Source of the DNA: a virus
Reading direction: 5' to 3' (one strand)
Length of the DNA: 64,000 nt
IMG/VR virus record: IMGVR_UViG_3300045988_180454
Location: 1-64,000 of that record
Positions 1,461-64,000 of the stretch are shown one piece after another. A model generated the notes under the pieces. It was not told where the DNA came from, searched no databases, and saw only the letters and a list, made by a program, of their open reading frames with translations. Position 1 is the stretch's first letter. The number at the start of each line of letters is the position of its first letter. The position numbers and the translations under genes were made by a program.

Positions 1461-1479
1461 GTGTGTTTTTATCGCTTTT

Positions 1480-1670
1480 TGGCCGGCTATAGCATCTAGA
1501 TGCTGATCTAGCCGCTAGCGCATAGCGGCTAGCACCCCCCCCGCTAGCCGGATTCTCTCTATATACAGCCCCTAGCAGCGCGCTAGGGGCGATTGAGCAG
1601 GCGTTTTAGGCTTATCCCTCCCTAGGGCGATTTTCTATGCCCTAGGCACCCGCTAGCCTAGGGGCGTTTC
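1480..1670. repeat. CTAG-core palindrome cluster (GCTAGC, CCTAGG, TCTAGA)
   Basis: About 11 CTAG tetramers in about 190 bp by eye. Includes the perfect 14-bp palindrome AGCATCTAGATGCT (1491-1504), GCCGCTA-N5-TAGCGGC and CCCCTAGC-N5-GCTAGGGG. Confidence 0.75.
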
Positions 1671-1896
1671 ATCACACTGACGATAAACAAAACGCCTTAG
1701 GGTAGCCTTGCCTTTGTTTTGGTCTGCTATTTACTAGGTGCCAAGTTGTTAGTGGGCATAGAGATATTAGGTCATGGAAAAGATTAGGGGGCACAAAAGG
1801 TTTTGAAGTATGAAAAGTTTGGGGTATCTCATTTTTTACCACTTGACAATTAGGTGGGTAAAATATCTTAGGCTGCATGTGTGAAGCCAAGGGGAA

Positions 1897-1922
1897 CCTA
1901 ACTAAGCCTTGCCTTAGTTAGG
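1897..1922. repeat. 10-bp inverted repeat CCTAACTAAG-N6-CTTAGTTAGG
   Basis: Arms at 1897-1906 and 1913-1922 are exact reverse complements. It is embedded in CCTTAG/AACCT word-rich DNA, and a second palindrome TAACCTT-G-AAGGTTA lies near 2041-2056. Confidence 0.7.
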
Positions 1923-2059
1923 ATAGCCTTAGTAAGGGCAAGCTTACTTGAGGGTCAACCTCAACCTTCAACCTCACCCTTAATGTTTGGGGGCAAAACC
2001 TTAAAGTTCGGGTTGAAACTGCACATATGCTACATTCAACGTAACCTTGAAGGTTAGGG

Positions 2060-2320
2060 CTGCAAGTTTGCTACTGAGACCTGTTTTCATGTAGCAAGTG
2101 TGCAGCAGATAGCACCTTTGCAGCACATCGGTATCGCCATGAGGTGCAAAGGTGGTCCGCCTGGTCGTGGTCCGGGTCCGTCCGCTCACCCCAACCGCTC
2201 CGCCGGTGACGCACCTCACTCTCTCGCGGCTGGACGTAGGTGGGCGGGTCCGGTACCCTGGAGGGTATGCAGGAAGGACTAAAGTGCAAGCTTCCCTACT
2301 TCGATGCGGTAGGACAACAG
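2060..2320 (+). other. hairpin-rich, locally GC-rich leader upstream of the first rightward gene (possible structured RNA)
   Basis: Inverted repeats: TTGCTAC/GTAGCAA (about 2066/2091) and CACCTTTGCA/TGCAAAGGTG (2113-2122/2145-2154). GTCCGTCCGC (2177-2186) pairs with GCGGCTGGAC (2227-2236) around a C-rich loop. Positions 2151-2270 are about 72% GC by hand count against roughly mid-40s% flanks. The ORFs overlapping in 3 frames have R/T/P-rich non-protein-like translations. Confidence 0.45.
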
Positions 2321-8144: not shown

Positions 8145-8424
8145 TGAGTTTCTTGAAGAAGAGCTGGAGCGCCTTTTTAATCTTGCTATTTTACGGGCTG
8201 AAGATGCTTGTTATCAAGACGATCAAATTCTCTCCCCCTTATCCGTAGGGCTTTTAATGTTAAGCCTTCTAGTAGAGAGAAGGGACAACGCCGAAAAACA
8301 CATGAAAAAGCCTTACCTTTCTGATAAGAAGCTTGTTCGTATGCTAGAAGAAGCACGACATTCAATTGACACTGCCCTGAGTACACATATCAAAAACCGA
8401 AAGGAAGCTGAAGGCAATGTGTAA
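8131..8424 (+). CDS. hypothetical protein (97 aa), paralog of 8943..9245
   Basis: The C-terminal KKPYLSDKKLVRMLEEARHSIDTAL aligns with SKPLLSNSETVRLIEEVRFAFNLVI of the other copy. Confidence 0.65.
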   Translation: MSDYDEFLEEELERLFNLAILRAEDACYQDDQILSPLSVGLLMLSLLVERRDNAEKHMKKPYLSDKKLVRMLEEARHSIDTALSTHIKNRKEAEGNV

Positions 8425-8950
8425 CCATGGGTTCCTTGAAGAAGATAACGAACCCCAAGAACTGCTAACTATGCGTCGCATCAGGAAATTCATAAATAAG
8501 CAGTTTCGTGAGACCGAGCAAATGCTGCAAGATACTCAAAAAGAGTTTTTAAAAGAAAATCATATTGACTCCTATTCTGAGCTCCCTTTGGATTGGGCAG
8601 TAGATATCCTTGAGCGGATCGGCGATGAGTTTTCTTTGTCTATTAAAGATTTCATCCGTGATCTAGAACTAGAAGAAGAGGAGGCAATAATGAAAACGCC
8701 AACTGTTAGTCTTGAGTCGGTAAAGTCATTTTTTAGTACAACCCAATTTCAGGTAAATCACCAAGTTGGGAAATTGGGTTTGGATCTGGTGGAAGACGGT
8801 CGCTATCCCAATGGGGAAATCCCTGTGGATTGGTTTACTAACTTCATGACACGAATCAAAGGAGATTTCAGCAAGGCCGTGGATGATTTTGTTGCTGATA
8901 TGTGCGCTCAAGCCGAGAAGGAGAAAAAGAAGGGATCAGAAAATGCCTAA
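8417..8950 (+). CDS. acidic hypothetical protein with an internal ~30-aa duplication
   Basis: ELPLDWAVDILERIGDEFSLSIKDFIRDL is repeated as EIPVDWFTNFMTRIKGDFSKAVDDFVADM. Confidence 0.7.
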   Translation: MCNHGFLEEDNEPQELLTMRRIRKFINKQFRETEQMLQDTQKEFLKENHIDSYSELPLDWAVDILERIGDEFSLSIKDFIRDLELEEEEAIMKTPTVSLESVKSFFSTTQFQVNHQVGKLGLDLVEDGRYPNGEIPVDWFTNFMTRIKGDFSKAVDDFVADMCAQAEKEKKKGSENA

Positions 8951-53177: not shown

Positions 53178-54866
53178 TTAACCGCCTAACCGAATCGGCA
53201 CCTGCAAAAAGTCCGTCTCAATTTCCGCTGCACCTTTCGCCAAAGCTTGCAGGCGGGCCTCCCAGGACAGCACAGCCGCCATTGCTGCGTCATATTTGAG
53301 CTCTCGCTTAATTTTGGTTAACCGCCACTTCTGGTTGTTTTCGTCATCGTACTGATTTAAAAGGTTTTTCCCTGCATTACCGATATGCCGTTCAAGATCA
53401 GGATTGCCAGTATGAGCTAGGTCACCGGAATCTATAGCTTCTTTATATGAACGCAGTGCATAATACATAGGGTTTGTTTTATTAGTATACCAAAAGATAA
53501 CTTTCTTTTCCCAACGTCCAGCCCAGGCGGACAATTGCTCTTGCCAATAAGGGGGATCGGCAAACATCCAGTAAACCTCGAAGTCTTCAAAAAGCGCCTC
53601 AACGGTCGCTTCAACCTCAGACACCGGAACTTCCCAGTTCCGTGAAGCTGGATCGTCCTTTGGTGGACGCTCCCAGAGACCCACAAGCTGCTGAACACCA
53701 GTATTAATATCGGTAATCACAATCGCTGTTGAGTCCTGAGTCTTAGCGCCGTCGAAGCCAATTGTTATCAGTGCCCCGTGCGGGATGCGAAGCTCTGGAT
53801 CTCCTAGGTCAGCAAATTTCTTTCGATCAAAGGCGTACATAGAGCTTGCAACCCAGCGGTTGCACCAAACCCGCTCAAGGCGGGAACGGTCCGCTCCTTC
53901 CTCGTCCCAAAGCTTCGCGGTAGCCAACAGATCACGCCACGTCGCCGGTCCCGCGGCTTCACGCAACGCCTTCAAGCGCTGAGCAATGGTGTCAAACTTC
54001 GCTAGCTCATCTGAGGTTTGACGATGATAAAAGAACGTGGTGCAGTCATCAATCTTCAAGTGTTTCTTGTTCGCGTTCTTGACGCCTTCTTCAAATTCGC
54101 TCTTTGCAATTGAGTCCTCAGAAGGATGTCCAGCGGTAGTAATTGACAGCTTCCAGGTGCCGAACATACCGAGCTTCGGTAGGCCGTGCACCACCGTAGA
54201 ATAAGCCTTCCGGTTCTGGTCGGAGGTAAACATATGGGTTTCGTCAAACACCACAAAGGTTGGTTTCAAACCTTCGGCGCTTCTTGAAGTAGCAGCTAGA
54301 GGAAGCGCTTTCGAGTTCACTTCACCCTGCACCATAATCCGCTCTTGGGTCACGTCAAACCAATCAGCATCTGGTATTTCCTTCGCAATCTCCATGGCCA
54401 CGCCATAACCAAGGTCAAACAGCAACTCTTTGGTTGGCGCGAAGAAGGGAATATAGGGAGATTGAACAGGAATACCGGGGGCTAACCCGCCGGGCATAGA
54501 GGGATCATACCCATTAAAACGAACCGGTGCCTCGGGATGCAGTTCACAAAGCGCAACAATCGCGCCTAACTCAGTTTTGGCGCAACCTTTAGGGACCGCA
54601 ACATTGACCGAATAGAAGTGCCTGCGACCGGACATGTCGATATATTCATCTTCGTACCTGGATTTATGCCCCTCAGGGAAATACTCGTAAGCACGCATGA
54701 GGATATATCGAAAATCTTCACGGACCTTATAGGGCTGTCCTTGCAACGGGCCTGGCCCGAACACAAAATGACTTTCAATAAAGTCAATGACTTGAGGCCC
54801 TAGGGTTGGCCAAATATCCAGCGTCCCATCTGGCTTTCTCGCTGGTTTAGGGGAAATAATTTCCAA
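53178..54866 (-). CDS. terL: terminase large subunit
   Basis: 562 aa with Walker A-like VAVPKGCAKTE, Walker B FVVFDETH and a C-terminal nuclease-type acidic residues. Located upstream of the portal. Confidence 0.85.
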   Translation of the reverse strand: MEIISPKPARKPDGTLDIWPTLGPQVIDFIESHFVFGPGPLQGQPYKVREDFRYILMRAYEYFPEGHKSRYEDEYIDMSGRRHFYSVNVAVPKGCAKTELGAIVALCELHPEAPVRFNGYDPSMPGGLAPGIPVQSPYIPFFAPTKELLFDLGYGVAMEIAKEIPDADWFDVTQERIMVQGEVNSKALPLAATSRSAEGLKPTFVVFDETHMFTSDQNRKAYSTVVHGLPKLGMFGTWKLSITTAGHPSEDSIAKSEFEEGVKNANKKHLKIDDCTTFFYHRQTSDELAKFDTIAQRLKALREAAGPATWRDLLATAKLWDEEGADRSRLERVWCNRWVASSMYAFDRKKFADLGDPELRIPHGALITIGFDGAKTQDSTAIVITDINTGVQQLVGLWERPPKDDPASRNWEVPVSEVEATVEALFEDFEVYWMFADPPYWQEQLSAWAGRWEKKVIFWYTNKTNPMYYALRSYKEAIDSGDLAHTGNPDLERHIGNAGKNLLNQYDDENNQKWRLTKIKRELKYDAAMAAVLSWEARLQALAKGAAEIETDFLQVPIRLGG

Positions 54867-54868
54867 GG

Positions 54869-55282
54869 CTAAACCTCAAATCCCTGATTCCGCATGCGTC
54901 GACGTTTACGTGCCCGCGCTGACACGGTTGTGTCATTCGGGTCAATAGGTGCAAACCGCTGGTTAAACGCCGTGGTTTTTTGAACGTGGTGCTCATAGCA
55001 AAGCAGCTGTAGATTGTCTAACCGGTTTGCTAAATGCTTTTCGTGAGGTTGGAACTCACTGATTTCTATGATGTGGTCTACTTCTGTTCCTGGTCCGCCA
55101 CAAATAGCACAGCGTCCGTTATAGAGCTCTCGAACCCGCTTACGCAAAGAATCGGTGGTGTGAGATTCTTTTTTCGGCAATGGGTGCTCAGCACATCTGG
55201 TTGTGCCAGGAAGAGCAAGGTTGTGGCAAGAATGATACACTGGGGTCTCTGATTCCCAGGAACAAAAAGTGACTTTCGGCAA
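54869..55282 (-). CDS. HNH endonuclease
   Basis: CAICGG...VDHIIEISEF...NLQLLCYEHHVQKT, which fits HNH with zinc-binding cysteines. Confidence 0.85.
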   Translation of the reverse strand: MPKVTFCSWESETPVYHSCHNLALPGTTRCAEHPLPKKESHTTDSLRKRVRELYNGRCAICGGPGTEVDHIIEISEFQPHEKHLANRLDNLQLLCYEHHVQKTTAFNQRFAPIDPNDTTVSARARKRRRMRNQGFEV

Positions 55283-55284
55283 AA

Positions 55285-55467
55285 TTAAGACATCCGTCCC
55301 GTGGTCTTACGACGGCTCGGCGCCTTCTTTGAACGGTAGGTCTTATTCTTGAGCTGTCGCGCTACAGCGTTTTTAGGGGTGAAATCATGCCCCCACTTGG
55401 AACCGGCCTTACCCTTGCCTTTTTTGTTTTTGTTGAGAGGCTTATTGCCCCGCCCTGATTTTGCCAC
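55285..55467 (-). CDS. very basic 60-aa protein
   Basis: About 40% K/R by eye (MAKSGRGNKPLNKNKKGKGKAGSKW...). GTG start behind AAAGGAA. First gene after the candidate late promoter. Confidence 0.55.
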   Translation of the reverse strand: MAKSGRGNKPLNKNKKGKGKAGSKWGHDFTPKNAVARQLKNKTYRSKKAPSRRKTTGRMS

Positions 55468-55500
55468 AAATAATTCCTTTGCTTTCGATTAATTAAACTT

Positions 55501-55509
55501 ATTATAACA
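55501..55509 (-). promoter_or_regulatory. extended -10 promoter (TGTTATAAT) for the structural operon
   Basis: The minus strand reads TG-T-TATAAT. The -35 is poor (AAGGTT at 17 nt). It sits between a terminator and the first structural-arm gene. Confidence 0.45.
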
Positions 55510-55544
55510 TATGTAGTTTAACCAACCTTAGTTTATTGTGGCAA

Positions 55545-55571
55545 GAAAAATAGGCCCCAGCTTTGGGGCCT
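55545..55571 (-). terminator. rho-independent terminator after thyX-mazG
   Basis: AGGCCCCA-AAGC-TGGGGCCT followed by ATTTTTCTT on the minus strand. Confidence 0.75.
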
Positions 55572-55582
55572 ACAACAACTAT

Positions 55583-56875
55583 TTATTCAGCTAAGCGTTC
55601 AACGGATTCAACCCATTGATTTACCAGGTCTTTGAAATCGGGTGGGACAAAGCCCTCGCCTTTTACAAACTTCCCTGTTTCTGGGTCGGTTTTCCCACCT
55701 TTGAACTTGGTGCGGTTTGATTCGCAAACCCGTTCGAGTGCTGCTGAAAGATCGTAACCGGTATGGGTTTTCACCGCCAAGCCTAAAAGAGTGAAAAGAA
55801 CGTCGCCGAAGGCGTCGTAAAGATCGGTGAGCACTTTTTCTCGGTATTCTTGATCCAACGCAAACTTGGGCTTCGCCATGAGGTTTACCGCTGATTTGAG
55901 TTCGTCTACTTCTTCGAGGAAGAAGTTCAGTGCTGGACGAAGCAGTGCTTCCCGGTCGCCTTCTGCATTCAACAGGATTTTCATATGGTCTGAAATGCTT
56001 GGCGGGATTTGTCCAACCTGCATGTTCCAGTTGCTTACTTCGTTGACGAAACCATCAAAAGCCCAGTTTTGTGATTCCTTATAAGTAGTTGGCGCTTTGG
56101 GGTCTGTGCTTAAGCCTGCGTCTTCAAGAACCTTACCAAAAACCGCACGGTCAAGATTGTAAAGTTCTTCGGCAATAAGTGCGATTACTGACCGGAACTC
56201 CGCATCTACACCTGCATCAGAACGCTTCTGAATAATTTCTGACCAGGTTCGGAAGTTACCTGTAACCACAATTGATGTCGCGGTAGCATTTGGCAATACA
56301 CAGCGAGCTGCTTCCGCTGCTTGTTTTTTAGAAGCCTCCGGGTGATAGCGCATTACCATGTCGAAAAGCTTATTGTACAGGTCTACGCTTTCGTTGGCGA
56401 AGCACTCTAGCTTTGCTTCCATTGATGCTTTAGGTGAAAGCGGAGGATAACTACCGCTATGAGTGAGGGGGAGGTCTTGTAAAGCCGGGGGAAGCACCAT
56501 CTCTAACCCCTTATCTGGGGAAACAAAACGCTGAGACAGTACGCTAAACGACAAGTGGCGGTGGCGCGTAAGCTCTGCCAAGAATGACCGGCTTACACTT
56601 TCAAGAAGGAATGTTGCCGAAGCGTGTTCCATGATGGAGTAGTGGTGTTTTTCATGGATCGTCTTCTCTACGTACTTAGTCGGCGTGTTGGTTTCCTCAT
56701 TTGGACGATCCCAAGACTGGTAGCAGTTCCGTCCCGCAAACTCAATAAGACGGGTTGAATCTGGATCACCTGGTTCATGAGGAAGCACGTGTCCAAAATC
56801 GTAGTTGAACTCTGGATTTAGCCGGGTGAAGGCAAGTAATGTTACTTGCGGAGTCTGAGAGATTCGCACATTCAT
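55583..56875 (-). CDS. thyX: ThyX (flavin-dependent thymidylate synthase) fused to a MazG-like NTP pyrophosphohydrolase domain
   Basis: ThyX signature RHRHLSFSVLSQRF in the N-terminal ~260 aa. The C-terminal ~140 aa carries FFLEEVDELKSAV...LYDAFGDVLFTLLGLAV, a MazG-type EExxE/D helix pair. Confidence 0.8.
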   Translation of the reverse strand: MNVRISQTPQVTLLAFTRLNPEFNYDFGHVLPHEPGDPDSTRLIEFAGRNCYQSWDRPNEETNTPTKYVEKTIHEKHHYSIMEHASATFLLESVSRSFLAELTRHRHLSFSVLSQRFVSPDKGLEMVLPPALQDLPLTHSGSYPPLSPKASMEAKLECFANESVDLYNKLFDMVMRYHPEASKKQAAEAARCVLPNATATSIVVTGNFRTWSEIIQKRSDAGVDAEFRSVIALIAEELYNLDRAVFGKVLEDAGLSTDPKAPTTYKESQNWAFDGFVNEVSNWNMQVGQIPPSISDHMKILLNAEGDREALLRPALNFFLEEVDELKSAVNLMAKPKFALDQEYREKVLTDLYDAFGDVLFTLLGLAVKTHTGYDLSAALERVCESNRTKFKGGKTDPETGKFVKGEGFVPPDFKDLVNQWVESVERLAE

Positions 56876-56876
56876 T

Positions 56877-57215
56877 CTACAGCACCTTGTCCGCTGCGTA
56901 GTCGTAGGAGAAACTGCCTTGGTTGTTCCGTGCTAGCTCACGCCGGCGCTGCTCAACATAAATGTCATTCTTATTCCAGAACGCTTCCATGAACATTGCG
57001 CGCAAAATAGACAGTTGCTGTCGCTTGTCTTCTTCCACTGAAGACGGATCTACCAGGAAGTACTTCGGTAGACCCGGGGAGTACTGAATTTCTTCCTTTG
57101 GTTTGCCTTGAATGAAAGAGGCGATTTCAAGGTCTCGCTGGTCTACGAGTTCGTCGTACTGGTCACGAAGAGCTTGTAGTTCTTCGTCGGTGTATTCTTT
57201 GAGCTTTTTAGCCAC
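56877..57215 (-). CDS. hypothetical protein (112 aa)
   Basis: Tightly packed ORF. Confidence 0.65.
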   Translation of the reverse strand: MAKKLKEYTDEELQALRDQYDELVDQRDLEIASFIQGKPKEEIQYSPGLPKYFLVDPSSVEEDKRQQLSILRAMFMEAFWNKNDIYVEQRRRELARNNQGSFSYDYAADKVL

Positions 57216-57227
57216 AATTCTTCCTTT

Positions 57228-58019
57228 CTAAAATAGTCGGTCTGCCATAGATTCTACCGGATGACCGCTTTGTAAACCTAATGTTTTGCGGATAAAGTTA
57301 ATGCCTTCTGTCTTTACAAAGGTGGTACGGATAGCAATTTTCCTTGCTGTGCGGGGATCAATTCGGTAGCCTTGCTTGACCTCAAAGTATTTCATGTACC
57401 GCTGATATGGCGTGTTGTAGTCATCTCCTCGGGAAATGAAAATGCCGCTATACCGAAGTTGGGCAAACAAGCTGTTTCGTCCAATCCCTAGGACTTTTGC
57501 CGCCTCAGCCATGGTGTAGAGACCTTCGGAGTCACAGAGTGCGTCGAAGGCTTCCGCTTTTGGTTGAAGTACCTTGTTTTCTGCCTCTAGGGCTAGTCGC
57601 TCTTTTTCTGTTGCGAGGGCAAGCTCTAGGATTTCTAGCCGGGACATATCACTTTGGGGGTTAGTCTGGTTCTGCTCTGCCCTGAGTTTGCGTTGCAATT
57701 GCTTCTCAGCTTCGATGAAGTATCGGCGTGCTTGCTTCCCTAGTTCTGAGCGTTGAATCATAGCAATTTCCTTTGCCATATCCAGACTCACAATGTGGTT
57801 GAGTCGGGGACGAGAAGGCATTCCCGCAGGTGGCGTCGAACGCTCATTTTTGAGACAGTAGTCAGTGCCTTCCTCGAAACCGTAAGCAGCCATCCGAGGG
57901 AACCAATCTTTATAATGAGCTCCTATTTGTAGGAACTTATGGAGGTCCCGTCCCATCACGGCTTGCACAGAATCTTCCATCTGCACAATGGGAAGCAGGT
58001 ACTTGATGAGATCAGACAT
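57228..58019 (-). CDS. antirepressor (AntA-like N-domain + KilA-C/ANT C-domain)
   Basis: GRDLHKFLQIGAHYKDWFPRMAAYGFEEGTDY is AntA-type. YTMAEAAKVLGIGRNSLFAQLRYSGIF is KilAC-type. AAAGGAG SD upstream. Confidence 0.75.
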   Translation of the reverse strand: MSDLIKYLLPIVQMEDSVQAVMGRDLHKFLQIGAHYKDWFPRMAAYGFEEGTDYCLKNERSTPPAGMPSRPRLNHIVSLDMAKEIAMIQRSELGKQARRYFIEAEKQLQRKLRAEQNQTNPQSDMSRLEILELALATEKERLALEAENKVLQPKAEAFDALCDSEGLYTMAEAAKVLGIGRNSLFAQLRYSGIFISRGDDYNTPYQRYMKYFEVKQGYRIDPRTARKIAIRTTFVKTEGINFIRKTLGLQSGHPVESMADRLF

Positions 58020-58074
58020 TTTTTGACTCCTTTGTGTTGTCTGATTGGGTGGACAATGTGTCTGGTTATCATTA

Positions 58075-58110
58075 TAGCAAAAACACCTAGACCATAAAGA
58101 TCTAGGTGTT
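58075..58110 (-). terminator. rho-independent terminator upstream of the antirepressor promoter region
   Basis: AACACCTAGA-N9-TCTAGGTGTT followed by TTTTTGC on the minus strand. TATAAT (plus-strand ATTATA, 58071-58076) follows immediately. Confidence 0.65.
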
Positions 58111-58388
58111 CCTACCTGTCAAATAATGTACCGACCAATTCTATGGGAGAGAACCAAGAGTCACCGGAAGTCCAGAAAAAGCCAGAGGCCGGGACTCTTG
58201 ATCGGTTAACTAATATGATAGCAGAAAATCCTTTGAAGAGCAAAACCCCTGGTTATTCCCAATACTCAAAAATGAGTACACGTAGAAAATCCCCCGGGGG
58301 AGTCAAAAACCCCAGGGGATCACCCAATCAATCACTCAATCCCTATAAAAAGAGACCCTGCGTTATCGTAAACGCAAAACCCATTATA

Positions 58389-58667
58389 TCACGATCCTTC
58401 TTGCAGCACAAGAATGGTTCGCTGAAGTAGGGCAATCATAGATTGATTATCTACGACATTGCAGCCTTCAATGGCAAGATCAAAACGATCTTTATACACG
58501 TCACCGTCCGCTTTTGCTTCTTTGTCTCGTAAAACAATAAGCACTCCGCCGACTAGTTCTTGAGACGGGTCTGCATCTGGCCATTGTTCTTCCTGCACTC
58601 TCCGTACTGCCTCTGCACAGGCGGAGTCATCAGTGACGTAGGTTTCATCAGAGATATGTTTTGTCAC
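58389..58667 (-). CDS. hypothetical protein (92 aa)
   Basis: 4-nt overlap with the upstream gene. Confidence 0.6.
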   Translation of the reverse strand: MTKHISDETYVTDDSACAEAVRRVQEEQWPDADPSQELVGGVLIVLRDKEAKADGDVYKDRFDLAIEGCNVVDNQSMIALLQRTILVLQEGS

Positions 58668-59182
58668 GGCAATTCACCTTCTACCTTTCGCATTTCCAGT
58701 TCAATAAGTCCATCGCGGAGGTCTTCGTATTTGTAATACCTATCCTCAAGTTCTTGCAATAATTCCTCAAGATCGTCTTTAGAAACAATGCTGTCAACGA
58801 AAGAGTAGATCCAATCAAAAGGATATTCCACCAAGTACTGGATGACTTCTTCAATGAGGATGCTTGAAGTAACATTTTCCAGATCGGGGAGCACAGGGAG
58901 CACTCTTTCCATATAGAAGTTCCGCAGGCCTGCTTTCTTTTGTTCAAACTGCTCCCAGAGTTGAAAAATATCCTCATCACTTAGGGGAGGTTCTTCTTCC
59001 TCGTGGGATTCAATAATGCTCTTGGGAAGCTTTTTGATTTCTTCATCAATCGCTTCTTGAAGAGAGTCTTTGACTGCAAAAAGCCGGTTGATCCGCTTGG
59101 TTTCTTCGGACTCCTCTTCTAGGGAGAGATATAGGCGTAGCAGCTCTTCATCACTTGGTTGGTTGTACATGTTTAGTCGCAT
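58664..59182 (-). CDS. acidic hypothetical protein (172 aa)
   Basis: ATG preceded by AAGGGAGA. Confidence 0.65.
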   Translation of the reverse strand: MRLNMYNQPSDEELLRLYLSLEEESEETKRINRLFAVKDSLQEAIDEEIKKLPKSIIESHEEEEPPLSDEDIFQLWEQFEQKKAGLRNFYMERVLPVLPDLENVTSSILIEEVIQYLVEYPFDWIYSFVDSIVSKDDLEELLQELEDRYYKYEDLRDGLIELEMRKVEGELP

Positions 59183-59295
59183 TCTCCCTTGTTATCGCTT
59201 TCTTCAAAGGCGTCCTCGAAAAATCTTCCCAGTAATCATCACTGCAAGGATGATTGGACATGAAAGAAGACTTTCTCCGGCTTTTTGAAGAGTTA

Positions 59296-59499
59296 TTAAA
59301 TTGTGTCCTTGTCCTGCGTCGATTGCGCATTGTTGTAGCCTTCCTTTCCTAAAATAGCCTGTTTAAAGGACTCCATTTGGGTTTCAAAGTCCTTTTGTCG
59401 GCGTTCTTCTGCTTCAGCATGAACTTTAAGAAATTCAGCAAAAGAACCAGGCTTGACATGAGTAAATTTTCTCGCTGGTTTATGGCTCATCTTGTTCAA
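59296..59499 (-). CDS. hypothetical protein (67 aa)
   Basis: Overlaps the upstream gene by 20 nt. Confidence 0.5.
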   Translation of the reverse strand: MNKMSHKPARKFTHVKPGSFAEFLKVHAEAEERRQKDFETQMESFKQAILGKEGYNNAQSTQDKDTI

Positions 59500-59881
59500 G
59501 TCCTTCTAGGTAGTCAGACATTGATACCACTTTTTTGTTGACAGCCTCAATGTTTTCTTTCTGACAATCGTGCGCTAGGCAAAGGTAAGAGGCCGCGTCT
59601 AGGCTGTCATCAATGAGTGATTCTGGGTATTCCTCGTAGACACTGCCTAGAAAATCAGGGTCTTGGTCAACGCATTGACTAAAGTCCGTGTTGGCGGTTA
59701 CTCGGGCAATTTTGAAAAGTGCCATCATCCGCGCTACGTCTTCTGGAAGCAGGGTGATATCCGCGTCTTCCCGGGTTGAAAGATACGCCGACCATTGCTT
59801 GGCAATGGCGAGAAAAGTTTTATCGCCGTAGCTTTCGCCTCGGGTTTCTAGAATGCGTTGAATTTCTTTTGCCGTGTCCAC
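59480..59881 (-). CDS. hypothetical all-alpha protein (weak MazG/DUF6378-like resemblance)
   Basis: The N-terminal RGESYGD motif and helical acidic body recall small phage NTP pyrophosphohydrolase-like proteins. This is inference only. Confidence 0.3.
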   Translation of the reverse strand: MDTAKEIQRILETRGESYGDKTFLAIAKQWSAYLSTREDADITLLPEDVARMMALFKIARVTANTDFSQCVDQDPDFLGSVYEEYPESLIDDSLDAASYLCLAHDCQKENIEAVNKKVVSMSDYLEGLEQDEP

Positions 59882-59894
59882 GAGTTTTTCCTTT

Positions 59895-60533
59895 CTATGC
59901 AGACTGCTTTGATTCTAGCATAGTGAGGAATTTTTCGGTGCGGTCACTGATGGTTGTTGCCATGTCCTCAACTTCGGCTTCTGAAGCACAAATGTCCACG
60001 TTGGCTACGTGAGTAATATCTGTGTAGCCTTGTGCCTCCAAAATCTTTTGAGTGTCTTTCACGGCTGCGCAAAAATCCCGACCAAACGTAAGGTTCCCGA
60101 CACCAATAATGAATTGGGGGGTGTCCCGCAAAATAAGTTTTTCTGCTTGCAAAAATTCTTTGAGTGGTTGGGGGATCATGTCGTCTTTCACCCGCCTTCC
60201 GATCGCTGGGTCGTCAACGAACCGTCCGTAGCTGGGAACCAACCACACCACAGAGGAATACATACGCTTTCCGCGGAACTGAGCTGCATCCATGTCGAGG
60301 GATGCGTATTGCTGTACAATTTCAAGCTTGATTCGATCCACCGCCTTGAGGTGTCCCCTTACGCCTTCTTTAAGGGCATTCGTGAGACAAATTCCTTCAA
60401 ACTTAGGAGCAGCCTTAGGGTTCCTTAGCCATAAAGTTTCCTTTAGCTTATCAAAGACTTTTTGAGTGTTACCGGAAAGACTGTAGGCAACAAGAAGATG
60501 GTTCATCCAAGGTTCAGGTTGGTTATTCGGCAT
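59895..60533 (-). CDS. nrdI: NrdI-like flavodoxin with an insertion
   Basis: LLVAYSLSGNTQKV, WLVPSYG and IIGVGNLTFGRDFCAA match NrdI landmarks (VYFSSxSxNT, IVPSYGGG, SGNRNFG). At 212 aa it is longer than the usual ~135 aa. Confidence 0.7.
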   Translation of the reverse strand: MPNNQPEPWMNHLLVAYSLSGNTQKVFDKLKETLWLRNPKAAPKFEGICLTNALKEGVRGHLKAVDRIKLEIVQQYASLDMDAAQFRGKRMYSSVVWLVPSYGRFVDDPAIGRRVKDDMIPQPLKEFLQAEKLILRDTPQFIIGVGNLTFGRDFCAAVKDTQKILEAQGYTDITHVANVDICASEAEVEDMATTISDRTEKFLTMLESKQSA

Positions 60534-60993
60534 CGAGGTTTTCCTTTTCAGTTACTAGTCCTAGTTTGAGTTTTTGAATCATTTCTTTTGCCAACTCCTG
60601 GTCTTCTTCGGATAGGGTGGTGATTCGCTCTTCCAGGTCCCGTACCGCGCGGAGGGAGTCGACGGTGATTCGGCTACAGGCAAAGGGGAAATGGTTGGTC
60701 TTAAACAACTCAATTAAAGCGTTTCCCGCTTCTAGGAATTGCCTTTTGTCTTCCGGGGTGAAAAGCAGCTCTGGTCCGTAGAGGGCCGGGACTAGAGCCT
60801 CACGGAGTTCTTCTGCATCAAAGACTTTTTCTAGAGGCAGAATGATTTGGATTTTGCCTGACTCAAGAAGTTTCTCCGCTAGTTCTTTTTTGACTCGTTT
60901 TACGGACTCTGGATTGGGGAACTCAAAAGTTTCTTGCCTGATTGCGGCGAGTAGCGCTAGGGAGTCTTCGTCTAGTTGGATTTCTAGCTTCAC
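60523..60993 (-). CDS. hypothetical protein (156 aa); first gene of the leftward arm
   Basis: GTG 60993 lies behind ACACAGAAAGGAAAA. A TATAAT (plus-strand ATTATA, 61031-61036) lies upstream. Confidence 0.65.
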   Translation of the reverse strand: MKLEIQLDEDSLALLAAIRQETFEFPNPESVKRVKKELAEKLLESGKIQIILPLEKVFDAEELREALVPALYGPELLFTPEDKRQFLEAGNALIELFKTNHFPFACSRITVDSLRAVRDLEERITTLSEEDQELAKEMIQKLKLGLVTEKENLDAE

Positions 60994-61162
60994 GTATTTT
61001 CCTTTCTGTGTCGTGACTCAATTATATATGACAGGGGAGGGGTTCAAGGTTTTGAGTCAAGATATCTTTGTCACACGTTAAAGCAAAACAAAAACAAAAA
61101 AAATTATGCAGAAAAACTTGAGTTAAGTGAGTTTTTGAGTTAACGGTGTTCAAAACATATCT

Positions 61163-61903
61163 TGACCTGCATAAATACCTAACTCAAATTCAAATCAAAA
61201 GTTGAGTTAGGGTTTTGAGTCAGAAAAAGTTGAGTTGGAGACGTTTAAACACAAAGAAACTCAAAAATTTACCCAAAAAAGTTGAGTTGAGTTGAGTTTT
61301 TGAGTTAAGTCAATGAAACCCACTCTGACCTGCACAAACCCGTAACTCAACTTTAACTCAAAAACTGAGTTGAGTTGAGTTAGGCGAAAAACTGAGTTGA
61401 AATTTAAAGCAAAATAAATCGAAAAATTTGTACAAAAAAGTTGAGTTACTTGAGTTAATTTGAGTTTACCCTATTTGACCTGCGGAAATGCTGACTCAAA
61501 TTCCAACTCAAGTTTTGAGTTGAGTTTTGAGTTGAGGATTGTCCGGGTTTCAGACTTCGGTTGAGCCGCCGGTGAGGCAAGGAAGAGACCGCAACCCACC
61601 GATTATGGCGCTGAAACAGGGTCTCAACTCAAATTCTGACTCAGTTTTCGCAAAAACAGCAAGACTCTGACCTGCATAAATACGTAACTCAAATTCTAAC
61701 TCAAAAAGTTGAGTTGGCCTTTTCGCTGGTCAGGATAGGTTTTTAGGGGCTAACTCAAAAACTCAACTTTTTTGTCGATATTTTATAACTAATAACGCTT
61801 TAACGCTTATTAGTTGTGCACAGCTGTATTTTCTCTATACGCATTATTTTACAATTTAAATTGAGTTATTGAGTTAGAGTAGTGAAAAGGGTATCTGACC
61901 TGG
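61163..61903 (-). promoter_or_regulatory. five minus-oriented copies of the GCAGGTCA motif (plus two plus-oriented copies)
   Basis: TGACCTGC/G on the plus strand at 61163-61170, 61326-61333, 61476-61483, 61668-61675 and 61896-61903. Plus-oriented CTGGTCAGGATAGGTTTTT at 61726-61744 and CCAGGTCAGAAT at 61943-61954. Confidence 0.55.
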
Positions 61904-62045
61904 TAAAACAGTAACTCAATTTCAACTCAACTTTTTATTTTCCCAGGTCAGAATTTGAGTTGAAACTGAGTTAGCAGTTCAGAGGGTATTTTTGAAACAC
62001 GAAAAACCGGGATTTCGGGTTTCCAACTCAAAAAGTTGAGTTAGG

Positions 62046-62095
62046 CAGAAAAAGACGCCTTGACTAAAAAACCGAAAGCGGCTGGTTCAAGGCGT
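62046..62095 (-). terminator. terminator after terS
   Basis: ACGCCTTGA (62055-62063) pairs with TCAAGGCGT (62087-62095). A CTTTTTCTG run follows on the minus strand. The loop is 23 nt and contains a sub-hairpin. Confidence 0.55.
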
Positions 62096-62119
62096 GTGCT
62101 CAAATTTGAGCGGCTGATT

Positions 62120-62644
62120 TTAAGAATATTGGTTGTACAGATTCTGCTGTTGCTTCTCCCACTCCTGAGCGAAAGTGCGGTCATTCGTAGCCGCGGCTCG
62201 GAGTTGTTCGCTGCGCTGCACCGCGGTGTTCCCTTGAGCGATAGTCCAGCGGAGCTTGACACGCGCCTCAGGCGTGAGTCCGAATTGTTTAATGCCGTCC
62301 ATCCAAAGCTTTTGGAATCGTGCTCGGTCGGCGGCCTTGTACATTGGGTTCAAGGATTCCTGGAGGTCTCCAGCGAGAATCACGAGGGTGTGATAGTCTG
62401 CGGCTGTCCATTCGCTCACCATCGGCGAGGTCCAGATCTCTTCCCACCAGCGGAGGACTACCGGGGACCATTTCGTCTCCTCGGCACCGATAAGATCGGC
62501 GGGAAAACCCACGACTTCGCTAGCAGGCGGAAGCTCTGGTAAGCTAGCTAGCAGCTCTTCTCGCGGCCTTTGTGCTAGCATGGTGGTAGCGGCCTTGGCA
62601 CCCTTTTTTGACGGGCCTCCGGGCTTCCTGGGGGGTCCTGGCAT
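62120..62644 (-). CDS. terS: terminase small subunit (P27 family-like)
   Basis: 174 aa with a basic N-terminus. FGLTPEARVKL and a preceding W/Y-rich helical region resemble phage P27-type small terminases. Confidence 0.65.
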   Translation of the reverse strand: MPGPPRKPGGPSKKGAKAATTMLAQRPREELLASLPELPPASEVVGFPADLIGAEETKWSPVVLRWWEEIWTSPMVSEWTAADYHTLVILAGDLQESLNPMYKAADRARFQKLWMDGIKQFGLTPEARVKLRWTIAQGNTAVQRSEQLRAAATNDRTFAQEWEKQQQNLYNQYS

Positions 62645-63718
62645 AGCGATATGGTCCTTTCCTTAGCTGAGCAGGGTCATCAAGGACATTTTACCCCAAT
62701 CCCTCGCAGAGCGAAATGTGCAGCACGCGCCCGGCTCGGCCCCAGATAGGGGGAGGGGGTACCCCTGGGTGAGGTAGAACGGGGGTAATTTGTGGGGGTA
62801 GTCGCTTTGTTTCCCCTGGTGAGTCGCAATATATATACCGCAAATTGGGCATGGGTGGGGGTATATAAGTGGGTTTCTCTGGTTGCATGGGGTTGTCTGA
62901 CCACCTGTTTTTACCGGAAAAACCCGGTTTTTTGCTTGTTTTATCAGTTTCTCTTAAGTCTTGCATGGATTTTGCATGCTATAGGTCAATCTTTTTACGG
63001 TCTATAGCATCAACTAAAAGTTTGATTGTAGCAATAGGTGTGGGTGGTTTTCCCTATCAAGGCCATTTCTTAGGGTAGGCTATGCTCACGTACGGGTGCA
63101 CGCAATCGGTATGGCAATTGAACTATAGGATTGTCCATAGGTGCCGATAGGCATACCGCATCAAAGGGATTGCCTATGTGTGCCTATCCACCATATAGGC
63201 AAGTGTATATAAAGCCGAATATAATAATTCGCAATCGTTTATATAGGCCATGCCTCAATATACCCGGCTAGGGGCTATCCGGGTGGTGCCTACCCCCTAG
63301 GCATGCCATGCAGCATGCCTAGCAGCCATGTGCTAGCGCTATGCCATGGCCTGCTGATCTAGGCCACTCAAAAGCGTATGGCCTAGCAGCCTCATAGACG
63401 CACGAACTCAAAGCCATATAGCCGATCATACCAGCGAGATATAAAGCCGCTGTATCGAGCTGCTAGGCTATCTATATCACATATCCCCTGGTGAGTAGAT
63501 AGTGATATGTGGTGTGGTGCCAGTGGATACCCCTATGATAGCAATGGTACTAATAGGCTATATGTGTGGTGTACTATCAGTATGCCATATGGCATATCCC
63601 TAGGCATGCCAAAACCCTACCTATAGTAGGTACCTATATAGATACCCCTATAGATAGGGTTGGTATATGGATACCCCCTATAGCAGGGGGCATAGAGTAT
63701 GCCTATACGATAGATAGG
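62645..63718. repeat. 1.07-kb ORF-free block of G-runs and ATAGGC / CATGCC / CTAGG / CTATAG words
   Basis: G5 runs at 62745-62895. ATAGGC/GCCTAT at least 9 times between 63070 and 63710. GCATGCC/CTAGC words at 63290-63400. TCCCCTGGTGAGT at 62811 and 63484. Confidence 0.8.
62908..62935 (+). terminator. weak plus-strand hairpin + T-run inside the repeat block
   Basis: ACCGG-AAAAAC-CCGGT followed by TTTTTTGC. The stem is only 5 bp. Confidence 0.3.
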
Positions 63719-64000
63719 TCAGTGGTAGTCAAACATGTGTTCGATACGGTCGATAAGCAGGGGGCTACCGGAATCGGTCAACCAAAAGTTTTTGGCACGG
63801 AAATATTGGTAAAAATCTACCCAGTTTTCCCACCAAAATAATTCGTCTAAAGGCACCCGGTGGGCGTCGTGGTGGATATCAAAGCCGGTTTTGGGGCGAT
63901 AGCCAAATACGTGTTTTTGTGCCATACCACCGGCTAAAAAGCGATTTTGATTGTGGTTATGGCTGACCCACCAAGTGACGCGACCAAAATCCGGGTGGAT
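63719..64000 (-). CDS. hypothetical protein, 5' end outside the window
   Basis: The frame of ORF 63719..63925 stays open to position 64000 (IHPDFGRVTWWVSHNHNQNRFLAGGMAQKH...). Confidence 0.55.
   Translation of the reverse strand: MHPDFGRVTWWVSHNHNQNRFLAGGMAQKHVFGYRPKTGFDIHHDAHRVPLDELFWWENWVDFYQYFRAKNFWLTDSGSPLLIDRIEHMFDYH

What the first reader, a model, noticed from the sequence alone, without database searches (positions are those of the whole stretch)
62645..63718. Second word-mosaic block upstream of terS: G-runs, ATAGGC/GCCTAT, GCATGCC, CTATAG
About 1.07 kb has no protein-like ORF. Sub-blocks are each dominated by a different short word and its reverse complement:
- G5 runs at 62745-62895 (GGGGGAGGGGG, TGGGGG x3), which could form a G-quadruplex or mark a cos region
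- ATAGGC/GCCTAT, at least 9 copies between 63070 and 63710
- GCATGCC/CTAGC palindromes at 63290-63400
- CCTATAG/GATAGAT words at 63600-63720

Together with 60994-62119, this leaves terS as a lone gene embedded in about 2.2 kb of repeat DNA.

The position immediately upstream of terS is where cos or pac and TerS-binding repeats normally lie.

A possible plus-strand unit of about 90 nt runs from TATATA near 62832 to a weak terminator at 62908-62935.
Basis: seen in the sequence. Interest (0 to 1): 0.65.

Follow-up and report, generated by a model that had tools for sequence, protein, structure and literature searches.

The report
Cohesive-end site and terminal repeat DNA
This 1.07-kb gene-free stretch is the cohesive-end (cos) packaging site and non-coding right end of an uncultivated phage, probably of a mouth Corynebacterium; cultured relatives have the same layout, so it is largely ordinary, though what most of its repeated words do is unknown.

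Summary
Window 62645-63718 has no credible ORF. It is far richer in repeated short words and local inverted repeats than shuffles or other parts of the genome.

It is the cos region plus the non-coding right terminus of a ~65-kb Zierdtviridae-like corynephage. Independent metagenome contigs start at exactly window 62722 (TGCACA..., 78 nt upstream of the terS ATG), one of them fused to an Illumina adapter. One contig arriving from the other side stops 9 nt earlier. Phages P1201, Zion and Darwin start their linear records at the homologous base, and P1201 has an annotated 10-nt cohesive end there. I infer a 9-10-nt overhang, probably 3', at 62723-62731.

The G-runs lie 20-140 nt inside the right end. 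A G-run element lies next to the end in the five related lineages where that DNA was available. The words GGGGGTA and CTATAG are more conserved than the rest of the block and recur in the right ends of P1201 and a Gordonia phage. ATAGGC and GCATGCC words are no more conserved than the block average.

That these words bind terminase is inferred, not shown. No RNA family, covariation, DnaA-box or promoter enrichment was found.

Verdict: a new member of a known kind, of modest interest.

The parts
62723..62731 (.). Inferred cohesive-end overhang (cosN core). On the + strand it reads GCACGCGCC; on the terS-sense strand it reads GGCGCGTGC. It may be 10 nt if G62732 is included. It sits inside the imperfect palindrome GTGCAGCAC (62718-62726).
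   Evidence: Contigs L004 and L034 start exactly at 62722 (TGCACA...). Distant relative L021 starts at the homologous base, fused to an Illumina adapter. L005 starts 2 nt inside. L039, coming from the other side, ends at ...GAGCCG, 9 nt before TGCACA. L002 and L003/L006 carry just these 9 nt and then unrelated DNA. The linear records of P1201, Zion and Darwin start at the homologous TG(C/T)A. P1201 has an annotated 10-nt cohesive end, CCTTCGGTGC.
62645..62722 (-). Left-end leader between the cut site and the terS ATG (a cosB-like position). It contains the conserved TGCACATTTCGCTCTGCGAGGGATTGGGGTAAAATG (62687-62722), a strain-variable spacer, and a ribosome-binding site.
   Evidence: 62687-62722 is nearly invariant in the relatives, whereas the 50-nt bin 62650-62699, which holds the spacer, is variable (0.68). 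Homologous left ends are: Zion TGTACAATATTTCGCGCGACAGTTGGGGAAATTG, L021 TGCACAATATCTACTGCGACAGTTGGGGAGG, P1201 TGCATATCTGCGTGTGCGAG, and Commandaria ...GTCTGGGGGTAAAA.
62745..62865 (+). G-run sub-block at the right genome end. It has GGGGGAGGGGG (62749-62759), the palindrome GGGGTACCCC (62756-62765), and four GGGGGTA words (62755, 62781, 62794, 62857).
   Evidence: Six of the window's seven GGGGGTA/TACCCCC copies lie in the block. These words are 0.963 conserved, against a block mean of 0.885. A G-run element lies next to the right end in Zion, Darwin, P1201, Commandaria and L020.
62812..62824 (+). TCCCCTGGTGAGT, first of two exact copies (the second is at 63484-63496). It is a variant of the family-wide C[AT]GGTCAGAG motif. 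A TATATATA box follows at 62830-62837.
   Evidence: Repeat family D13. Compare TTTCCCCTGGTCAGAGTAGG at window 1180-1199, the motif statistics, and the copies in other lineages.
62913..62935 (+). Intrinsic-terminator-like hairpin ACCGGAAAAACCCGGT followed by TTTTTTG. It is the possible 3' end of a small + strand transcript starting around 62840-62876.
   Evidence: Terminator scan. It lies in the most conserved 100 nt of the block (0.95-0.96). No covariation was seen and there is no Rfam match.
63000..63031 (.). Protospacer matched by a CRISPR spacer of the presumed Corynebacterium host.
   Evidence: The L033 contig is a chimera of a CRISPR array and the phage. The phage sequence starts at CTACAATCAAAC. 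The repeat is identical to an array in a Corynebacterium sp. MAG.
63076..63706 (.). Zone of TAGGC/GCCTA words (15 copies) with GCATGC, CTAGC and CCTAGG palindromes. Its conservation is only average, and it contains slippage and recombination variants.
   Evidence: Word counts. Conservation of TAGGC/GCCTA is 0.881 and of GCATGC 0.897, against a block mean of 0.885. A 10-nt deletion between ATAGGCA repeats is present in most relatives.
63263..63283 (.). Palindrome CCCGGCTAG-loop-CTATCCGGG. The loop is GGGG, GGG, CCC or CCCC in different strains.
   Evidence: Alignment of 17 copies.
63297..63322 (.). Perfect 10-bp palindrome CTAGGCATGC-N6-GCATGCCTAG. Its 6-nt centre is CATGCA in the window, the reverse complement TGCATG in L007 and L008, and AGCATG in most other relatives.
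   Evidence: Inverted repeat I23 and alignment.
63527..63683 (-). Distal words on the terS-sense strand: CTATAGGGGGTATC, CTATAGGGGTATC and TCATAGGGGTATC. They sit within a run of small palindromes (CCTACTATAGGTAGG, ATGCCATATGGCAT).
   Evidence: CTATAG is 0.996 conserved. The same words, in the same orientation, open the right-terminal non-coding DNA of P1201 (ACTATAGGGGGTAG, CTCTATAGGGGGT) and occur in Commandaria (CCTATATAGGGGTGTA).
62120..62644 (-). terS, the terminase small subunit and first gene of the linear genome.
   Evidence: Pfam PF25673 Terminase_7, E = 7.7e-14. It is 44% identical to Zion gp1 and 39% to P1201 gp2. Its homologues are gene 1 in several hundred actinophage records.
63719..64000 (-). 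3' end of a 235-aa gene of unknown function, the last gene of the right arm.
   Evidence: Complete in L001 at 8219-8926. No Pfam hit. It is only 72-74% identical at protein level in the relatives whose block is about 88% identical.

Best explanation
The block is the cos region and non-coding right terminus of a linear, cos-type, ~65-kb siphovirus of the Zierdtviridae kind. Its host is probably an oral Corynebacterium.

**Mechanism.** In replicating concatemers, terminase (TerS 62120-62644, TerL 53178-54866) cuts at 62723-31. This leaves complementary 9-10-nt single-stranded ends, probably 3'-protruding.
- terS then becomes the first gene at the left end, 78 nt in.
- Window 62732-63718 becomes the last ~1 kb at the right end.

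**Shown here.** A fixed DNA end exists at this nucleotide, and it is homologous to the ends of cultured relatives.

**Inferred.**
- The family-conserved words close to the cut are protein-recognition elements for cos recognition and for ending packaging, analogous in position to lambda cosB and cosQ. These words are TTGGGGTAA on the left, and GGGGGTA x4 plus the GGGGGAGGGGG/GGGGTACCCC element on the right.
- The distal CTATAGGGGGTA words may belong to the same system.
- The remaining TAGGC/GCATGC palindrome mosaic is conserved spacer DNA. Its word texture is maintained and reshuffled by slippage and template switching. Its specific role is unknown.
For: **1. Contig ends cluster at one nucleotide.** About eight independent contigs out of roughly 21 that reach this area end within 60 nt of 62722.
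- Three start at exactly the same base, one of them directly fused to an Illumina adapter, in a lineage whose TerS is only 40% identical.
- A 64,154-nt contig of a third lineage starts 26 nt before the homologous site.

**2. The 9-mer is missing from both ends.** L039 stops 9 nt short from the other side. Absence of the 9-mer from both ends fits a 3' overhang trimmed during end repair.

**3. Cultured relatives have the same ends.**
- P1201, Zion and Darwin records begin TGCATATCTGCG.. or TGTACA(A/T)TATTTCGCG.. and end ..GGTGC.
- P1201 carries an annotated cohesive-end feature.
- In Zion and Darwin, terS lies 93 nt from the left end and 1,096 or 1,062 nt of non-coding DNA lie at the right end. 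In P1201 the terS homologue (gp2) starts at nt 294, after a small annotated ORF, and 763 nt at the right end are non-coding.
- Gene order is the same: terS, flavodoxin, ThyX, TerL, portal.

**4. The terminase is related.** TerL is 58.6% identical to phage Darwin. TerS is 39-44% identical to the isolates.

**5. The block is under constraint.** It is 88.2% identical across relatives. terS DNA is 88.5% and the adjacent gene 77.4%.

**6. Some words stand out.**
- GGGGTA/TACCCC and CTATAG are significantly more conserved than the block (0.963 and 0.996 against 0.885).
- The block shares 37 distinct 9-mers with the P1201 right end, against 6.3 expected (maximum 15), although the two are not alignable.

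**7. Other corynephages with mapped cos sites** have 3' overhangs of 13-16 nt (PMC6132909, PMC5506516, PMC8002715).
Against: - The ends are inferred from assemblies, not from virion DNA.
- Only one contig marks the right end precisely. Five others stop 35-175 nt short, at different places.
- One adapter-fused contig end (L022) lies about 120 nt away from the site, so adapter fusion alone is not proof.
- Overhang polarity and exact length (9 or 10 nt) were not measured.
- No binding data exist for any word.
- The G-run element is inverted relative to cos in this lineage compared with Zion and P1201. This is compatible with a protein site in duplex DNA, but it shows the arrangement is not rigid.
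- The ~550 nt between 62940 and 63480 has no assigned function.
Confidence: 0.72

Rival explanations
1. A pac site for headful packaging. TerS would bind the repeated words and make a first, imprecise cut, giving circularly permuted, terminally redundant genomes.
For: The position is upstream of terS and the region is rich in repeats. Full-length contigs of 64.8-66.3 kb start at arbitrary points, as circular assemblies do.
Against: Contig ends coincide to the nucleotide in three assemblies and two lineages. The site is homologous to the defined ends of cos phages P1201, Zion and Darwin. Arbitrary starts are equally expected when concatemeric or ligated cos DNA is assembled.
Confidence: 0.04
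2. The breaks are assembly or sequencing artefacts. G-runs, palindromes or strain variation would stop assemblers, and the block would be merely hard-to-assemble spacer DNA with no defined end.
For: Right-side contigs stop at several different places in the G/C-run zone. Two of them stop at a strain-variable site. Contigs L002 and L003 have chimeric junk at the end. Contigs of 60.8-61.6 kb also lack the adjacent 4-5 kb.
Against: Left-side starts fall at one identical base, which is also the first base of the records of cultured relatives. Thirteen contigs read straight through the block without trouble.
Confidence: 0.06
3. The block encodes RNA. This would be either one large structured non-coding RNA or leader on the terS-sense strand, or one or more small RNAs. 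The best small-RNA candidate is a ~60-100-nt + strand RNA ending at the 62913-62935 terminator. Such RNAs could coexist with cos.
For: Both strands fold better than shuffles: z = -7.7 for the minus strand and -3.8 for the plus strand over 62940-63718. A canonical hairpin plus T-run lies on the + strand in the most conserved 100 nt. A copy of the family-wide CCCCTGGT[CG]AG motif lies about 100 nt upstream of it.
Against: No Rfam hit, even at E <= 1. The candidate sRNA shows no covariation signal: 1 of 33 predicted pairs has a compensatory change and the covariation term is about zero. Palindrome centres flip to their reverse complement between strains, and stems are equally good on both strands, as expected of DNA palindromes. 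Distant relatives share the vocabulary but no alignable structure. Sigma-70-like promoters are not enriched: 1 found against 4.3 expected.
Confidence: 0.15
4. A replication origin or early regulatory platform. The words would be iterons or operators for a phage or host DNA-binding protein, placed on the DNA end that enters the cell first.
For: Many short direct and inverted repeats are present, and the block is conserved without coding. By analogy with lambda-like siphoviruses, the last-packaged right end should be injected first; this rests on established knowledge and was not tested here. A host CRISPR spacer targets the block.
Against: DnaA boxes are not enriched: 13 matches in the whole window against 13.8 expected, with only one 1-mismatch copy in the block. 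There is no AT-rich unwinding stretch; GC is 41-52%. No single iteron dominates. The adjacent right-arm genes are not conserved in relatives that keep the vocabulary.
Confidence: 0.1

Closest known systems
Cohesive ends of Corynebacterium phage P1201 (NC_009816.1; Zierdtviridae, Chunghsingvirus)
   Same: The left end reads TGCATATCTGCGTGTGCGAG, against TGCACATTTCGCTCTGCGAG in the window. The annotated 10-nt cohesive end finishes in GGTGC, against CGTGC here. A terS homologue (39% identical) lies near the left end. The right end is 763 nt of non-coding DNA that opens with CTATAGGGGGTAG words and closes with GGGGAGGGGG.
   Different: The overhang sequence differs (CCTTCGGTGC against (G)GGCGCGTGC). 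P1201 has long GCCTAAGTTAGG arrays that the window block lacks. The G-run element has the opposite orientation. The two regions are not alignable. TerL is only 53% identical.
Genome ends of Corynebacterium phages Zion and Darwin (Ceetrepovirus) and Gordonia phage Commandaria (Foxborovirus)
   Same: terS is gene 1, starting at nt 94 in Zion and Darwin and nt 158 in Commandaria. In Zion and Darwin more than 1 kb at the right end is non-coding; Commandaria has about 480 nt non-coding, one small annotated ORF, then a final 175 nt. All have a G-run element 20-60 nt from the right end. TTGGGG(G)(T)AA lies at the left end. TATAGGGGT words occur in Commandaria.
   Different: Each lineage has its own dominant words. 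Zion and Darwin have about 40 CCTTAGTTAGG/CCTAAGTTAGG units. In the window phage, AGTTAGG-like words lie instead downstream of terS (60994-62119) and at 1890-1940.
Phage lambda cos (cosQ-cosN-cosB)
   Same: The cut site has partial two-fold symmetry and lies just upstream of the small-terminase gene. Conserved elements flank it on both sides, at the positions of cosB (between the cut and terS) and cosQ (on the other side). This comparison rests on established knowledge of lambda.
   Different: Lambda has a 12-nt 5' overhang, and its small-terminase gene, Nu1, was not compared with this terS. In lambda the R sites and the IHF site are experimentally defined. Here nothing is known about binding, and the non-coding flank is five times longer than lambda's ~200-bp cos.
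Short-repeat arrays next to the ends of T7 DNA and the repeat- and palindrome-rich terminal region of T5
   Same: These are arrays of short words and palindromes beside physical genome ends, and their function is still poorly understood. This comparison is recalled from the literature and was not tested here.
   Different: Those phages have direct terminal repeats, not cohesive ends. Their hosts, terminases and words are unrelated.

Membership tests
cos (cohesive-end) packaging site of Zierdtviridae-type actinophages | A fixed physical genome end at a defined nucleotide | tested here: met
   L004, L034 and L021 (adapter-fused) start at the same homologous base. L005 starts 2 nt inside. About 8 of roughly 21 contigs end within 60 nt. 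This is indirect evidence, because it comes from assemblies rather than from virion DNA.
cos (cohesive-end) packaging site of Zierdtviridae-type actinophages | Sequence homology of the end to experimentally set ends of cultured members | tested here: met
   The window junction GCGTGC|TGCACATTTCGC matches P1201 GGTGC|TGCATATCTGCG and Zion GGTGC|TGTACAATATTTCGC. P1201 has an annotated cohesive-end feature.
cos (cohesive-end) packaging site of Zierdtviridae-type actinophages | Complementary single-stranded overhang of defined length and polarity | tested here: inconclusive
   There is a 9-nt gap between the end of L039 and the start of L004/L034, and chimeric contigs share just this 9-mer. This suggests a 9-10-nt 3' overhang. 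It rests on a single right-end contig, and polarity cannot be read from assemblies.
cos (cohesive-end) packaging site of Zierdtviridae-type actinophages | Site lies directly upstream of terS, with terS the first gene of the linear map and the same terminase family | tested here: met
   The cut lies 78 nt upstream of the terS ATG. TerS is PF25673 and 39-44% identical to the isolates. TerL is 58.6% identical to Darwin. Homologues are gene 1 in most of the actinophage records listed.
pac site (headful packaging) | Imprecise first cut, circular permutation and terminal redundancy | tested here: not met
   Ends coincide to the nucleotide across assemblies and lineages, and they match cos phages. 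Read-level data were not available.
G-quadruplex-forming element | Four G3+ tracts with short loops, on a consistent strand | tested here: not met
   No pattern with loops of 7 nt or less. Relaxed patterns (loops up to 12 nt) occur only at 62749-62785 and 62847-62873 on the + strand. Relative to cos, the G-rich strand is on the opposite side in Zion (patterns; G-runs read).
Known structured RNA family (Rfam 15) | Covariance-model match | tested here: not met
   No match at gathering score in the whole window. Only two chance-level microRNA matches at E <= 1 in 60900-64000, and both lie outside the block.
Terminator-bounded small RNA gene | Promoter, conserved structure and intrinsic terminator on one strand | tested here: inconclusive
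   The terminator is present. The scan found no sigma-70-like promoter upstream of it. The consensus fold has no covariation signal: 1 of 33 pairs is compensatory and the covariation term is about zero.
DnaA-dependent replication origin | A cluster of DnaA boxes next to an AT-rich stretch | tested here: not met
   TTGTCCACA with up to 1 mismatch gives 13 matches in the window against 13.8 expected, and one in the block. GC is 41-52% across 62900-63718.

The most novel reading that the evidence does not exclude
The vocabulary flanking cos in Corynebacterium and Gordonia Zierdtviridae is more than a minimal cos site. It comprises CTATAGGGGGTA words, a G-run palindrome next to the end, lineage-specific TAGG-core arrays, and the C[AT]GGTCAGAG motif. 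Under this reading it would be an undescribed multi-site nucleoprotein platform spanning 1-2 kb on both sides of the cut. The platform would be read by terminase or another conserved phage protein to control the end of packaging, DNA ejection or the first events after entry. The words turn over while the architecture stays the same.
Probability: 0.25. Interest if true: 0.55.

Novelty: new member of a known kind. Interest (0 to 1): 0.3.

Why it matters
- **Genome map.** It fixes the true ends and orientation of an abundant, uncultivated human-oral phage genome. terS is gene 1 and the 1-kb block is the right terminus.
- **Host.** It points to Corynebacterium as the likely host.
- **Assemblies.** It explains why public assemblies of this phage break at one spot.
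- **Experiments.** It gives a concrete, short list of conserved words to test for terminase binding: GGGGGTA, CTATAG and the G-run element. The block's other words show no extra constraint.
- **Open question.** The long non-coding, word-rich flanks of cos recur across a whole phage family and have no assigned function, so a modest open question remains.

Tried and rejected
- **Nucleotide search of the phage collection.** Searching with 62000-64000 found nothing.
- **tRNA and Rfam scans.** Both were empty.
- **Sigma-70 promoter scan.** One site was found against 4.3 expected, so promoters are not enriched.
- **DnaA boxes.** Not enriched, so the ori reading was not pursued.
- **Consensus folding of the candidate + strand sRNA.** It gave no covariation signal: 1 of 33 pairs compensatory, covariation term about zero.
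- **Whole-block RNA folds.** Both strands scored better than shuffles. I read this as palindrome content, not as evidence for RNA.
- **Direct alignment of the block with the P1201 right end.** It failed, giving 66% noisy identity. Only words are shared.
- **Spacers of the Corynebacterium MAG array.** None matches the window. The host link rests on the identical repeat only.
- **Right-arm proteins (102, 143, 121 and 235 aa).** They have no Pfam hit and no tblastn match in the fetched end regions of Zion, Darwin and P1201, so no conserved neighbouring DNA-binding protein could be proposed.
- **Pattern scan of IMG/VR for further contigs starting at the cos site.** It returned only contigs already in hand.
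- **G-quadruplex reading.** Rejected as the main explanation.
- **Literature searches.** The SEA-PHAGES corynephages and P1201 repeats returned no paper describing these words.
Full report
**What is in the sequence**

Window 62645-63718 lies between terS and the 3' end of a 235-aa gene.
- terS occupies 62120-62644 on the minus strand (Pfam Terminase_7, E = 7.7e-14).
- The 235-aa gene runs from 63719 past the window end on the minus strand. It is complete in locus L001.
- No ORF in the block exceeds 91 aa. In relatives the longest ones are interrupted by 1-, 10- and 13-nt indels.

- ATAGGC/GCCTAT occurs 7 times as a hexamer. Its 5-mer core TAGGC/GCCTA occurs 15 times.
- CTATAG has 6 of the window's 11 copies here.
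- GGGGG occurs 6 times.

Repetition is well beyond chance.
- 49 distinct 7-mers occur at least three times, against 12.9 +/- 3.5 in dinucleotide shuffles.
- 39 local 6-bp hairpins are present, against 8.6 +/- 3.9.

No tRNA or Rfam family is present.

**The genome and its host**

The window is nearly a whole ~65-kb phage genome. On the minus strand, terS is followed about 7 kb further on by an NrdI-like flavodoxin, an Ant-like protein, ThyX, TerL and a portal.

TerL is 58.6% identical to the C. vitaeruminis phages Darwin, Zion and C3PO, and 53% identical to C. glutamicum phage P1201. These isolates are classified in Zierdtviridae.

Sample names show a human oral origin.

One public contig (L033) is a chimera between a CRISPR array and the block. 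Its repeat is identical to an array in a Corynebacterium sp. MAG. The host is therefore most likely an oral Corynebacterium. This is an inference, because that MAG's own spacers do not hit the window.

**A physical DNA end inside the block**

I fetched public contigs that carry the same or related terS. Many stop just upstream of it.
- L004 (a Logan assembly) and L034 (a 60.8-kb ENA contig) both start at exactly TGCACAT..., which is window 62722.
- L005 starts 2 nt inside that point.
- L002 and L003/L006 carry just nine more bases (GGCGCGTGC) and then unrelated DNA. In L002 that DNA is a human Alu element.
- In a lineage whose TerS is only 40% identical, contig L021 starts with the Illumina adapter GCTCTTCCGATCT fused directly to TGCACAATATC. 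This is the homologous nucleotide.
- A 64,154-nt contig of a third lineage (TerS 29% identical) starts 26 nt before the homologous site.
- From the other side, L039 ends at ...GGCGAGCCG, exactly 9 nt before TGCACA.
- Five further right-side contigs stop 35-175 nt earlier, at various points in the G/C-run zone.

Thirteen contigs read straight through. Joined forms are therefore also sequenced, as expected for concatemers or ligated cos DNA.

**Cultured relatives settle the interpretation**

| Phage | Record | Left end starts | Right end finishes | terS start | Right-end non-coding DNA |
|---|---|---|---|---|---|
| Zion | linear | TGTACAATATTTCGCGCGACAGTTGGGG | GGGGGGAGGGGGACTACCGGGGGTACCCAATCGGCGCGCCCCTACGGTGC | nt 94 | 1,096 nt |
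| Darwin | linear | near-identical to Zion | near-identical to Zion | nt 94 | 1,062 nt |
| P1201 | linear | TGCATATCTGCGTGTGCGAG | last 10 nt CCTTCGGTGC, annotated as the cohesive end | nt 294 (gp2 homologue) | 763 nt |

The window junction GCGTGC|TGCACATTTCGCTCTGCGAG is plainly homologous to these ends. I therefore place the cohesive-end overhang at 62723-62731, with 62732 possibly included.

The 9-mer is absent from both kinds of contig end, which fits a 3' overhang removed during end repair. Other corynephages with mapped cos sites have 3' overhangs of 13-16 nt. Polarity and exact length remain unmeasured here.

In the linear map, terS is the first gene, 78 nt from the left end. Window 62732-63718 is the non-coding right terminus.

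**Is the rest of the block functional?**

Conservation was measured across six relatives from one IMG/VR sample.

| Region | DNA identity to the window |
|---|---|
| Block 62645-63718 | 88.2% |
| terS | 88.5% |
| Adjacent 235-aa gene | 77.4% (72-74% at protein level) |

A non-coding stretch with no synonymous sites that keeps pace with coding DNA is under constraint.

Within a 17-sequence alignment the constraint is uneven.
- GGGGTA/TACCCC positions are 0.963 conserved and CTATAG positions 0.996. The block mean is 0.885.
- TAGGC/GCCTA (0.881) and GCATGC (0.897) are no better than average.

GGGGGTA/TACCCCC is almost confined to the block, with 6 of the window's 7 copies.
- Four copies lie on the + strand within 135 nt of the right end.
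- The others lie on the opposite strand at 63291-63672, fused to CTATAG as CTATAGGGGGTATC.
- One further GGGGTA lies in the conserved left-end leader (TTGGGGTAAAATG).

The same vocabulary recurs in other lineages.
- It opens the P1201 right-terminal DNA (ACTATAGGGGGTAG, CTCTATAGGGGGT).
- It occurs in Gordonia phage Commandaria (CCTATATAGGGGTGTA, and TGGGGGTAAAA at its left end).
- A G-run element lies next to the right end in the five related lineages where that DNA was available.

The block shares 37 distinct 9-mers with the P1201 right end, against 6.3 expected (maximum 15). The two cannot be aligned. Shared words without shared alignment are what arrays of protein-binding sites look like.

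The adjacent right-arm genes are not conserved in the isolates. Any reader of these words is therefore encoded elsewhere, and terminase is the obvious candidate.

**The mosaic texture**

The middle of the block (about 63076-63480) is a chain of palindromes with different sequences.
- The 6-nt centre of CTAGGCATGC-N6-GCATGCCTAG (63297-63322) appears as CATGCA, as its reverse complement TGCATG, and as AGCATG.
- The loop of CCCGGCTAG-N-CTAGCCGGG (63263-63283) is GGGG, GGG, CCC or CCCC in different strains.
- A 10-nt deletion lies between two ATAGGCA repeats.

These are footprints of template switching and slippage at DNA palindromes and repeats. They explain why each sub-block is dominated by one word and its reverse complement. 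They also argue against a sequence-specific role for the loops.

**Tests of the alternatives**

RNA reading:
- Both strands fold better than shuffles, with z = -7.7 (minus) and -3.8 (plus). That is expected of palindromes.
- No Rfam match was found.
- The + strand terminator at 62913-62935 is canonical and lies in the most conserved 100 nt.
- A copy of a family-wide motif (TTTCCCCTGGT[CG]AG) lies about 100 nt upstream of that terminator.
- The alignment shows no covariation signal, with 1 of 33 pairs compensatory, and no sigma-70-like promoter was found.
- A small RNA therefore remains possible but unsupported.

Origin reading: DnaA boxes are not enriched and there is no AT-rich stretch.

G-quadruplex reading: no canonical G4 motif exists, and the G-rich strand differs between lineages relative to cos.

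pac reading: it is contradicted by nucleotide-exact ends and by homology to cos phages.

**Verdict**

The guess that this is where cos lies is right.
- Firmly supported: the location of a cohesive-end site at 62723-62731, and the identity of the block as the conserved non-coding right terminus of a Zierdtviridae-like corynephage.
- Inferred: that GGGGGTA, CTATAG and the G-run element are terminase or accessory-protein sites.
- Unknown: the function of the remaining ~550 nt.

This is a new member of a known kind. Interest is modest. The open point is what the long word-rich flanks of cos do in this phage family.

Noticed in passing
L033:1-112 and window 63000-63031: Public contig ERZ773076 NODE_1325 begins with two CRISPR repeats (GGAACTACCTCCGCATGCGCGGAGAATAC) and a spacer, then runs into the phage at CTACAATCAAAC. 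A host spacer therefore targets this non-coding block. The repeat is identical to an array in a Corynebacterium sp. MAG (NZ_JAUNKC010000037.1). None of that MAG's 13 spacers matches the window.
   Followed up: partly
L002:1-25: The contig end is a chimera of a human Alu element (AGTAGCTGGGATTACAGGCGCGTGC) and the phage. The junction is exactly the 9-mer GGCGCGTGC proposed as the cohesive end. L003/L006 have a different foreign 11-mer joined at the same 9-mer.
   Followed up: partly
window 1078-1450 (+), 61324-61952 (both strands); also L028:1068-1700, L020:4860-5640, Zion 65553, P1201 105, Commandaria 36 and 1183: A motif C[AT]GGTCAGAG followed by 3-4 nt and a T-run recurs in non-coding DNA of every lineage examined. 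The pattern CHGGTSAGR has 19 matches in the window against 4.5 expected. In several places it points towards the downstream genes. It could be a phage-specific promoter or operator.
   Followed up: partly
window 890-2100: A third word-rich non-coding block lies in the divergent intergenic region. It has CTAGC/CCTAGG palindromes at 1490-1660 and GCCTTAGTTAGG words at 1890-1940. These are the same words that form ~40-copy arrays at the right ends of Zion, Darwin and P1201. By length, the 60.8- and 61.6-kb contigs that start near cos should end around here.
   Followed up: partly
window 60994-62119: The other repeat block, downstream of terS, is built from GAGTTGAGTT/AACTCAA words, some of them extended to AGTTGAGTTAGG. 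It resembles the AAGTTAGG arrays that the isolates carry at the right end. Related phages L028 and Commandaria also have 0.6-1 kb of non-coding DNA after terS. Zion and Darwin do not.
   Followed up: partly
window 63263-63283 and 63297-63322: Two palindromes keep their arms, but their centres flip between strains (CATGCA/TGCATG; GGGG/CCCC). This is a signature of template switching or cruciform-type inversion in this DNA.
   Followed up: yes
window 53178-62644: terS is separated from terL by about 7 kb of nucleotide-metabolism and other genes (NrdI-like flavodoxin, Ant-like, ThyX). The cultured relatives have the same arrangement. In P1201 a different small ORF next to terL is annotated as 'putative small terminase', while the true terS homologue (gp2) is unnamed.
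   Followed up: partly
L060 and L061 (3' ends), window ~62898: Contigs from two different samples and assemblers end at the same base (…GGTGGTCAGAC). This is a site where strains differ (CAGACAACC against CTGATGACC), so it is probably a strain-variation break rather than a DNA end.
   Followed up: no
L022:1-21 and L020:1-28: In the distant lineage, L022 carries an Illumina adapter fused about 120 nt upstream of the cos-homologous site, and L020 starts with a 28-nt T-run. Adapter fusion alone is therefore not proof of a genome end.
   Followed up: no
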